Shown piece by piece: positions 33,065 to 34,061 of a stretch of DNA of 64,000 nucleotides. The notes beneath the pieces are model-generated. The model did not search any database. It had not been told where the DNA came from and was given only the letters and a program-made list of their open reading frames with translations. This stretch comes from a virus, in the IMG/VR virus record IMGVR_UViG_3300009103_000004, positions 64,001-128,000 of that record, one strand, 5' to 3'. The stretch's first letter is position 1, and each line of letters starts with the position of its first letter. Both the position numbers and the translations under genes were made by a program.

Positions 33065-34061
33065 AACATAACAGAGCTTATACGAGCGTAACGTAACCCC
33101 CGTAACTTATCCCAAACAATCACATACGTAACTTGCCAAATCAGACAAGACACATCGCTACAAATCTCAAAACAACCCATCTTAGCTAAACCCACCAGAT
33201 CAGACAGAACATACCATATCATATTTTAACTCAGCTTAACGAGACACAACTCGACTAAAGCCATACCAATTGCTCAACATATCTGACCTAAAGCAACCCA
33301 GCTCATCCAAACGGAGCAAATCGAAGCTCGCCGGAACCCAACTCATCTTAACCTATCTGACATACCAGAACTGATACCATCTCATAACAGCGAAACTCAT
33401 CATAACAGAGCTGACTCAACAAAGCGGAACAAGTCTCATCATAGCGAAACTCAACAAAACAGAGCGGAACAGCCAAATCTTACCAGAACAAAGCGAAGCT
33501 TACCCCAGCTGAACTTATACTATCTTAACCCAGCTAATCAAATCAGCCACATTGGAGCGGAACTTATCCCATCTGAACCAGAAGCAACTTGACTCATCGT
33601 ATCTGCCGCAACTGATCGCAAAGCACCGCAACATAGCACACTAGAGCATATAATACCAGATCACATCTGCCGAAGCGAAACATAACTGAACATATCTTAA
33701 GCCAACAGGGCTCAACGAAACATATCTGACTTAACAGAACGTAGCCCAACTAAACACAGCAAAAGACTACTTAACATGTAACGCCATATCTGACTTAACA
33801 CAACTCGGGGCAACTCAGCACGTAGCATACCTACCGAACTTACGAGAACTTATCTGACTTAACGGAACGTATCTATACAAATCTCAGCCCATCCCATCTT
33901 AACTTATCTGACATAACAGAGCTGAACAAACCTGGCCGGAACCAAACCCATATCAACTCAGCTCGACAAAGGGGCATCGAATCTGACTTAACAGAGCATA
34001 GCTTATACGAACGTAGCAAAACGAATCCCAGCTAGACGAATCTGCCATAGCAAAACGGAAT
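33065..34061 (-). ncRNA. 5-nt-period guide-like array (GHT-NN)n, about 14 full units
   Basis: Plus strand reads A[ATG]C-NN in phase; boundary ATC-W-G[AC]C (first triplet AGC at 33409, AAC at 33468) at 33140, 33199, 33281, 33355, 33409, 33468, 33542, 33601, 33665, 33724, 33788, 33852, 33906, 33981, 34040. Confidence 0.88.

What the first reader, a model, noticed from the sequence alone, without database searches (positions are those of the whole stretch)
33731..33787. Unit decoding to the gamma-glutamylcyclotransferase N-terminal motif VFVYGTLK
Seen: RNA-sense NN = AT GT AT AA GT TT GT TA GG AC CT AA. Known: FVYGTL[K/R] opens GGCT/AIG2-like proteins, which many phages and bacteria encode. Inference: the first AT could be a start codon, so the guide would cover the very 5' end of the gene, a good place for silencing.
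Basis: partly seen in the sequence, partly recalled or inferred. Interest (0 to 1): 0.8.

Follow-up and report, generated by a model that had tools for sequence, protein, structure and literature searches.

The report
Phage VIPR guide spelling cyclotransferase gene start
This 57-base stretch is one guide of a phage's VIPR array (a CRISPR-like gene-silencing system described in 2026), and its code matches the first eleven codons of gamma-glutamyl cyclotransferase (GGACT/AIG2) genes, but whose gene it silences in nature is unresolved.

Summary
Observation confirmed. On the minus strand, 33790-33731 is twelve G-N-Y/NN pentamers between two GTCAGAT boundaries. It lies in a ~1 kb array just downstream of a homologue of the SUSP1 Vipr protein.

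Under the published one-base-skip rule the twelve NN pairs give x-start-I-K-V-F-V-Y-G-T-L-K.
- The nine-pair core occurs in 43 IMG/VR contigs, against 0 for the reversed control.
- All 43 are in codon phase at the N-terminus of GGACT-like ORFs. 12 were sampled and all are Pfam PF06094 (GGACT).
- The full 24-base pattern matches exactly in only one gene lineage: a chromosomal PF06094 gene of six Calothrix/Dulcicalothrix genomes, covering -3 to +33. Only skipped bases vary there.

Caveats:
- The phage lineage comes from marine water-column samples, whereas Calothrix is not pelagic.
- Nine other guides do not hit Calothrix.
- A lucky perfect match within this large family is plausible.
- The best viral genes match 22/24.

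The natural target's owner, host or rival element, therefore stays open. This scan already noted VIPR widely, including another unit of this array. This is a new member of a known kind.

The parts
33731..33790 (-). The guide itself: twelve G-N-Y/NN pentamers. NN = AT GT AT AA GT TT GT TA GG AC CT AA (the finding's 33731-33787 runs from first to last NN).
   Evidence: It is 71/71 nt identical, boundaries included, in contigs L052-L054 from other samples.
33788..33794 (-). 5' unit boundary GTCAGAT. The register slips by one base here. Its last three bases (GAT) are also the scaffold of the first pentamer.
   Evidence: Thirteen boundaries G[TG]C[AT]GAT, spaced 54-82 nt and once 187 nt, each with a phase shift of -1.
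33724..33730 (-). 3' unit boundary GTCAGAT, which starts the next unit.
   Evidence: Its 'AG' does not continue the match to the target (the next codon there is CCN), so the guide ends at 33731.
33060..34060 (-). The whole vrRNA-type array of about 15 units with no ORF. It is strongly G/T-rich on the minus strand.
   Evidence: No Rfam family matches.
34078..34108 (-). 12-bp GC-rich hairpin followed by TTTGTTG, between vipr and the array. It is terminator-like, or a processing or leader element.
34133..34993 (-). vipr homologue (286 aa, P0001) with a Lys/Ala-rich N-terminal tail and the G-loop GIGEWRP.
   Evidence: phmmer against PDB 36pp 'SUSP1 Vipr protein' gives E 1.7e-5. A profile of 8 homologues gives E 1.3e-9 over the G-loop region. 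An AF2 model (pLDDT 59) gives only Csm3/Cas7 RAMPs as top Foldseek hits.
35019..35669 (-). Candidate vap (216 aa, P0002), always directly upstream of vipr.
   Evidence: Synteny in L052-L056 and L061. It is 31% identical (E 3e-36) to the gene upstream of a 46%-identical Vipr. No Pfam, PADLOC or PDB relative was found.

Best explanation
The stretch is one complete 12-repeat guide (vrRNA unit) of a VIPR system carried by an uncultivated 167-kb phage.

By analogy with the SUSP1 system, the array is transcribed from the minus strand and cut into units at the G[TG]C[AT]G/AT boundaries. One Vipr protomer binds each G-N-Y scaffold and presents the NN pair. The filament then pairs with one DNA strand, skipping every third base.

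This guide's 24 read bases equal codon positions 1-2 of the triplet before the start, the start codon, and I-K-V-F-V-Y-G-T-L-K. That is the invariant N-terminal strand and YGTL motif of GGACT/AIG2-like gamma-glutamyl(amine) cyclotransferase genes. The RNA has the sense of the mRNA, so it can pair only with the template DNA strand, not with the transcript. The predicted effect is CRISPRi-like blocking of transcription at the 5' end of such a gene.

Reading only positions 1-2 of a functionally fixed motif makes escape by synonymous change impossible.

Shown here: the repeat anatomy, the Vipr homology, and the in-phase sequence matches. Inferred: transcription, processing, binding and silencing. 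Unresolved: which GGACT gene is hit in nature, that of the unknown marine host or that of a competing phage or mobile element.
For: System:
- Vipr homologue directly upstream, with a conserved partner gene.
- 5-nt array with fixed positions 1 and 3 and free NN.
- The published rule and mechanism are in bioRxiv 10.64898/2026.04.26.720920 and 10.64898/2026.04.26.720927.

Target family:
- The 9-NN core with a 1-nt skip gives 43 viral loci against 0 for the reversed control. All are in codon phase within 0-15 codons of the start of small ORFs.
- 12 of 12 sampled are PF06094, with HMM position 1 on the V-F-V-Y start.
- 31 of the 43 match at least 20/24 read bases, the published 80% criterion.

Perfect match:
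- 24/24 in six Calothrix/Dulcicalothrix genomes and two metagenome contigs, at -3..+33 of a PF06094 gene (E 4.8e-22).
- There is one site per genome.
- In those sequences 5 of 11 skipped positions vary and 0 of 24 read positions vary.
- Orthologues in 55 of 301 genomes of the same family match with 0-3 mismatches, against 7 control hits.

No self-target:
- The best match in the phage's own genome is 17/24, and it has no PF06094 gene.

Persistence:
- The unit is kept unchanged in array variants that differ by gain or loss of other units.
Against: - There are no expression, processing or binding data for this system.
- The scaffold is not the published GGY. Two of this unit's twelve scaffolds (TAC, CTT) lack the G, and one (GTA) lacks the pyrimidine.
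- There is no 3' tail or pseudoknot of the kind seen in type II vrRNAs.
- Contigs with this Vipr or its relatives come from marine water-column samples, where no 24/24 or 23/24 target was found. The best viral genes are 22/24.
- The guide does not recur in other arrays of IMG/VR. The copies that do exist are in near-identical phages, so they say nothing about selection.
- No role of GGACT genes in phage conflicts is established.
Confidence: 0.8

Rival explanations
1. The natural target is the GGACT gene of competing phages, satellites or other mobile elements in the same host, as for most published VIPR guides. The guide is a family-level weapon that tolerates a few mismatches.
For: - GGACT genes with the core site occur in 43 IMG/VR contigs, and 31 of them pass the published 80% threshold.
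- Isolated marine Vibrio phages carry annotated AIG2-like cyclotransferases.
- Published targets are mostly satellites and prophages, and natural matches average about 89%.
- SUSP1 vrRNA4 works with only six units.
- Other units of this array spell motifs typical of mobile DNA, such as HsdM and C5-methylase.
Against: - No viral gene exceeds 22/24.
- Only one viral lineage (L012) has the start-I-K/N architecture that the guide's first pairs specify, and it uses ATG where the guide reads GT.
- The mismatch tolerance of this Vipr is unknown.
Confidence: 0.4
2. The target is a chromosomal GGACT gene of the phage's own cellular host, so this is host-gene silencing. The strong form says the host is a Calothrix-clade (Nostocaceae) cyanobacterium, because only there is the match 24/24.
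For: - Exact matches are found only in six Calothrix/Dulcicalothrix genomes among 185,579 species representatives, and in two Calothrix-like contigs among 241 million metagenome records.
- For random sequence about 0.004 hits are expected (596 Gb x 2 / 4^24, my arithmetic).
- The gene sits among leuS, an ECF sigma/anti-sigma pair and a YkuD transpeptidase, which is core chromosome and not a mobile element.
- The guide reads GT at the GTG start codon.
- The HsdM guide of the same array also matches 20/20 in 3 of 5 of these genomes.
Against: - The phage lineage is sampled from the Cariaco/oxygen-minimum-zone water column, and relatives come from the Mediterranean free-living fraction. The perfect-match genomes are not pelagic.
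- Nine other guides have no match within 2-3 mismatches in five Calothrix genomes.
- The HsdM motif is near-universal.
- About 120 small (picocyanobacteria-sized) genomes of the phylum have no site within 2 mismatches.
- My rough look-elsewhere estimate is as follows. About 1 in 43 core-bearing lineages has the start-I-K architecture. Multiplied by the GTG share and by the upstream 'AT', that gives about 3e-4 per lineage. Over several hundred to a few thousand lineages this gives 0.1-1 coincidental perfect lineage.
- Large phage proteins have no relatives among isolated cyanophages.
Confidence: 0.3
3. The unit is a decayed or unused array member, or the resemblance to GGACT genes has no function.
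For: - Three of the unit's twelve scaffolds deviate from G-N-Y.
- No perfect target was found in the phage's own habitat.
- The guide is not seen in other arrays.
Against: - All twelve NN pairs match a real gene start in phase.
- The match ends exactly at both unit boundaries.
- The reversed control gives 0 against 43.
- Shuffled guides reach at most 19/24.
- The unit persists while neighbouring units come and go.
Confidence: 0.07

Closest known systems
VIPR systems (Vipr + vap + vrRNA), type II of Escherichia phage SUSP1 and a Pseudomonas fulva prophage (bioRxiv 10.64898/2026.04.26.720920; structures 10.64898/2026.04.26.720927, PDB 36pp)
   Same: - Phage-borne two-gene module with a lone RAMP protein that shares the G-loop GxGxWRP.
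- Downstream non-coding array of 5-nt repeats with a fixed triplet and a free NN.
- 12 repeats per guide, as in the SUSP1 vrRNA used for cryo-EM.
- Targets follow the 1-nt-skip rule with the skipped base on the wobble position.
- No self-target.
   Different: - The scaffold is G-N-Y with the second base free, not GGY. The G-loop Asp that reads G1 in SUSP1 is Glu here.
- The Vipr is 286 aa against 202, with a Lys/Ala-rich N-terminal tail.
- There is no 3' tail or pseudoknot. Units abut at a 7-nt boundary with a 1-nt register slip.
- Sequence identity is confined to about 57 residues.
- The best target is a cellular metabolic-type gene, not a satellite or prophage regulator.
Staggered vrRNA arrays (legend of fig. 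S18 of the same preprint)
   Same: [quoted passage not shown] That fits the GTCA-G-AT boundary, where G can close one pentamer and open the next.
   Different: Only the legend could be read. The VIPR type, scaffold and boundary sequence of the published examples could not be compared.
SUSP1 vrRNA4 against the F5 satellite recombinase (bioRxiv 10.64898/2026.10.15.759431)
   Same: The guide register coincides with codon periodicity on invariant residues, so only wobble bases are free to vary and escape by silent mutation is blocked. Here 0 of 24 read bases and 5 of 11 skipped bases vary among the perfect targets.
   Different: - Six units and an 18-bp internal footprint there, against twelve units and 36 bp across the start codon here.
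- There the target's owner and the effect were shown by experiment. Here neither is known.
Class 1 CRISPR effector backbones (Cas7/Csm3 filaments) and CRISPRi
   Same: RAMP fold (the top Foldseek hits are Csm3). Periodic base flipping by a thumb. Silencing by binding without cutting.
   Different: - No CRISPR repeats, no cas genes, and no spacer acquisition.
- Three guide bases are flipped per two read, and one target base is skipped per two read.

Membership tests
VIPR system | A Vipr protein: a minimal RAMP (RRM core, G-loop, thumb) encoded next to the array | tested here: met
   P0001 against PDB 36pp SUSP1 Vipr gives E 1.7e-5, and a profile of 8 homologues gives E 1.3e-9, over the G-loop region. 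The low-confidence AF2 model gives only Csm3/Cas7 as top fold hits.
VIPR system | vrRNA of tandem pentamers with a conserved GGY triplet alternating with hypervariable NN | tested here: inconclusive
   The pentamer period and free NN are met. The triplet is G-N-Y (G 86%, Y 96%, middle base free), not GGY. The preprint allows 'a related consensus' and lists NNNGG, YNNNG and NNNNG, none of which is exactly this.
VIPR system | Targets obey the 1-nt-skip rule (xNN) | tested here: met
   24/24 with a 1-nt skip in Calothrix. 43 viral hits for the 9-NN core against 0 for the reversed control. Other skip lengths were not scanned.
VIPR system | An accessory vap gene in the operon | tested here: inconclusive
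   A 216-aa gene is always directly upstream and co-varies with vipr. Homology to vap1-6 could not be tested because no sequences were at hand, and it has no Pfam or PDB relative.
VIPR system | Conserved 3' tail or pseudoknot capping each vrRNA (type II) | tested here: not met
   Units abut at G[TG]C[AT]GAT with no intervening tail. The unit has no significant fold (z -1.8). This argues against type II, not against VIPR.
VIPR system | vrRNA is expressed, bound by Vipr, and silences matching DNA | not testable with these tools
   This needs small-RNA sequencing, pull-down and reporter assays.
GGACT / AIG2-like gamma-glutamyl cyclotransferase (Pfam PF06094), as the target | The matched gene scores above the family's curated cut-off, and the site covers the N-terminal motif | tested here: met
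   The Calothrix ORF scores E 4.8e-22, 79 bits against a cut-off of 22.8, with HMM position 1 at residue 4. Ten viral ORFs sampled here score E 1e-8 to 4e-24, and two more carry precomputed PF06094. NCBI names the orthologues gamma-glutamylcyclotransferase.

The most novel reading that the evidence does not exclude
A phage uses a VIPR guide to shut off a core, non-mobile cellular gene, the GGACT-type cyclotransferase, at its start codon. The perfect 24/24 match then names the host clade (Calothrix-type Nostocaceae) for an otherwise unplaceable 167-kb phage. That would make vrRNA-to-host-gene matches a host-assignment tool, and it would implicate GGACT enzymes in phage-host conflict.
Probability: 0.12. 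Interest if true: 0.7.

Novelty: new member of a known kind. Interest (0 to 1): 0.45.

Why it matters
This is a clean, checkable case of a VIPR guide whose whole length, boundary to boundary, matches codon positions 1-2 of a conserved protein motif at a gene's start. It extends the published escape-proof, codon-phased targeting from a satellite recombinase to a widespread enzyme family.

If the target is cellular, it would be host-gene silencing by a phage-encoded RNA-guided system, and a hint that GGACT/AIG2 enzymes, whose bacterial role is obscure, matter during infection.

The array also documents a VIPR variant (G-N-Y scaffold, tail-less staggered units, longer Vipr) that GGY-based callers would miss.

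Tried and rejected
- My first idea was an RNA wrapped round a TRAP-like ring protein, or an unknown guide type. I dropped it once the Vipr homology and the 2026 preprints were found.
- Exact 12-NN pattern in IMG/VR: no hit. The same guide in 5-nt form elsewhere: none for 12 NN or for the 9-NN core.
- The search for related loci with Vipr in IMG/VR: nothing.
- megablast of the locus and tblastn of two large phage proteins against isolated phages: nothing.
- tblastn of the Calothrix GGACT against phages: nothing.
- Host clues led nowhere. HIP1 is absent, and there is no significant palindrome avoidance under a Markov model: CGATCG is 2 against 8.9 expected. 'relatives' is not available for a virus record.
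- Nine other guides were tested on five Calothrix genomes and none matched.
- An N-terminal word search of the protein collection returned only Calothrix-type orthologues.
- PADLOC finds no defence family for the target, Vipr or vap.
- The literature gives no link between GGCT/AIG2 and anti-phage systems.
- Rfam finds no family in the array.

Full report
**What is there.** Window 33060-34060 has no ORF. On the minus strand it has a strict 5-nt period: autocorrelation is 0.44 at lag 5 against about 0.23 elsewhere. The repeat is G-N-Y-N-N. Over 104 in-register pentamers, position 1 is G in 86% and position 3 is T or C in 96%. Position 2 is free, and the last two positions are near uniform. Thirteen boundaries of the form G[TG]C[AT]GAT, mostly 54-82 nt apart, each shift the register by one base. 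The finding's unit lies between GTCAGAT at 33794-33788 and GTCAGAT at 33730-33724.

**What system it belongs to.** Two 2026 preprints describe phage-borne Vipr proteins (minimal RAMPs). Vipr polymerises on vrRNAs made of GGY/NN pentamers. It hides the triplet, presents the NN pair, and binds double-stranded DNA while skipping every third target base, which silences transcription on either strand.
- The 286-aa ORF directly upstream of the array (34133-34993, minus) matches the solved SUSP1 Vipr protein at E 1.7e-5. As a profile of its eight metagenomic homologues it matches at E 1.3e-9, across the G-loop (GIGEWRP here, GVGDWRP in SUSP1).
- A low-confidence AF2 model (pLDDT 59) still retrieves only Csm3/Cas7 RAMPs as top fold matches.
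- A 216-aa gene always precedes vipr and co-varies with it, which makes it a candidate vap.

The differences from the characterised type II systems are as follows:
- The second scaffold base is not G.
- There is no 3' tail or pseudoknot.
- Units abut with a one-base slip, which fits the "staggered arrays" mentioned in a figure legend.
- The Vipr is longer and has a Lys/Ala-rich N-terminal tail.

- The 9-NN core (K/N-V-F-V-Y-G-T-L-K/N) occurs in 43 IMG/VR contigs. The same pattern read backwards occurs in none.
- All 43 are in codon phase, 0-15 codons from the start of small ORFs.
- Twelve of twelve sampled are Pfam GGACT (PF06094), with the model's first position on the V-F-V-Y start.
- 31 of the 43 match at least 20 of the 24 read bases, and the best three match 22.
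- Relaxed scans for the guide's 5' half added only L062 (21/24). They showed that the start-I-K/N architecture occurs in a single viral lineage, L012.

**The perfect match.** The full 24-base pattern is absent from IMG/VR. It occurs exactly in six of 185,579 species genomes, all Calothrix or Dulcicalothrix, and in two Calothrix-like metagenome contigs.
- The site is GAGGGTTA ATT GTG ATT AAR GTR TTT GTT TAT GGM ACY CTY AAA, that is -3 to +33 of a 141-143-aa ORF. That ORF is PF06094 at E 4.8e-22, and NCBI names it gamma-glutamylcyclotransferase.
- The Shine-Dalgarno spacing, and ATG or GTG at the same place in orthologues, put the start codon at the second triplet.
- The match begins and ends exactly at the unit's boundaries. 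The constant AG of the boundary does not pair with the next codon.
- Among the perfect sites, 5 of 11 skipped positions vary and none of the 24 read positions do.
- Each 10-12 Mb genome has one site even at up to 3 mismatches, and the controls give none.
- Shuffled guides reach at most 19/24 on these loci.
- In 301 genomes of the same family, 55 carry the orthologous site with 0-3 mismatches (6, 8, 18 and about 23 genomes respectively), against 7 control hits.
- The gene lies between leuS, a FeMo-cofactor-domain gene, an ECF sigma/anti-sigma pair and a YkuD transpeptidase. That is ordinary chromosome, not a mobile element.

**Why I do not conclude that Calothrix is the host.**
- Contigs with the identical Vipr, and with this unit 71/71 nt identical, come from samples whose neighbours in the accession series are Cariaco Basin or oxygen-minimum-zone water. 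A contig with a 53%-identical Vipr comes from the Mediterranean free-living fraction. Other agents also called this a marine phage.
- Of eleven guides of the array tried on five Calothrix genomes, only this one and the HsdM guide matched, and the HsdM motif is near-universal.
- About 120 picocyanobacteria-sized genomes have no site within two mismatches.
- The guide spells the consensus start of a very large family, so a look-elsewhere effect applies. From the viral sample, roughly 1 in 43 core-bearing lineages has the start-I-K architecture. Allowing for GTG starts and the upstream AT gives about 3e-4 per lineage. Over several hundred to a few thousand lineages in the databases this predicts 0.1-1 coincidental perfect lineage (my estimate, not a computed null).
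- The phage's own genome has no GGACT gene and no site better than 17/24.
- The guide does not recur in other IMG/VR arrays.

**Mechanism, committed.** This is a functional VIPR guide that directs a 12-protomer Vipr filament to the template strand across the start of a GGACT/AIG2-family gene and blocks its transcription. Because the RNA has the sense of the mRNA, it cannot act on the transcript, which fits DNA targeting. Its register on codon positions 1-2 of a catalytically constrained motif makes silent-mutation escape impossible. This is the same logic shown experimentally for SUSP1 vrRNA4. Confidence is about 0.8.

Whose gene is targeted remains open. I put a rival phage or mobile element at about 0.4, a cellular host gene at about 0.3 (with Calothrix-clade specifically at about 0.12), and no function at about 0.07.

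Why a phage would silence this enzyme is unknown. No defence family, paper or neighbour links it to immunity here. Unchecked notes of this scan report GGCT genes beside defence systems and in phage amidoligase cassettes.

**Novelty.** VIPR, the skip rule, codon-phased targets and odd scaffolds are already in print, and this scan holds over a thousand VIPR notes, one on this very array. The unit is a new member of a known kind. It comes with an unreported target family and a scaffold and architecture variant worth recording.

Noticed in passing
L053:4011-4060 and L054:3268-3317 (no counterpart in the window): Near-identical phages (same Vipr protein) carry arrays that differ by whole units. L053 and L054 lack the window's units at about 33796-33852, 33668-33724 and 33604-33667, and have a shorter stretch after the Walker-A unit. 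They also carry an extra unit decoding V-Y-G-[FL]-[FL]-[FL]-[HQ]-T-L-[KN]. This shows unit-level gain and loss between strains.
   Followed up: partly
window 33860-33906 (-): The HsdM-motif guide (K-K-G-G-E-F-Y-T-P-K) matches 20/20 read bases in 3 of 5 Calothrix genomes. A variant of it, and of the C5-methylase guide, recurs in the array next to a 53%-identical Vipr (L057, L058).
   Followed up: partly
window 34904-34993 (-), residues 1-30 of the Vipr homologue: A Lys/Ala-rich, histone-H1-like N-terminal tail (predicted disordered) that is absent from the 202-aa SUSP1 Vipr. It may be an added DNA-binding arm.
   Followed up: no
window 34181-34201 (-), Vipr residues 264-270: The G-loop reads G-I-G-E-W-R-P where SUSP1 has G-V-G-D-W-R-P. 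SUSP1 D177 reads the first scaffold G, and W178/R138 cradle the second G. The relaxed second scaffold base here may go with changes in the thumb, which I did not examine.
   Followed up: no
window 34078-34108 (-) and 35681-35709 (-): Two 12-bp terminator-like hairpins. One lies between vipr and the array, and one lies just upstream of the vap-like gene. The array may need read-through or its own promoter, and this phage encodes its own RNA polymerase according to another note.
   Followed up: no
L069:1501-3432: In one virus the targeted GGACT gene lies two genes upstream of a Peptidase_C26 (gamma-glutamyl hydrolase-type) gene. This hints at a viral gamma-glutamyl-bond cassette.
   Followed up: no
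window 33262-33298 and 33062-33152 (-): The promoter-distal end of the array is irregular, with broken register, doubled TGTCT and GTTAC repeats, and boundaries CTGAT instead of CAGAT. It looks like decaying or founding units.
   Followed up: no
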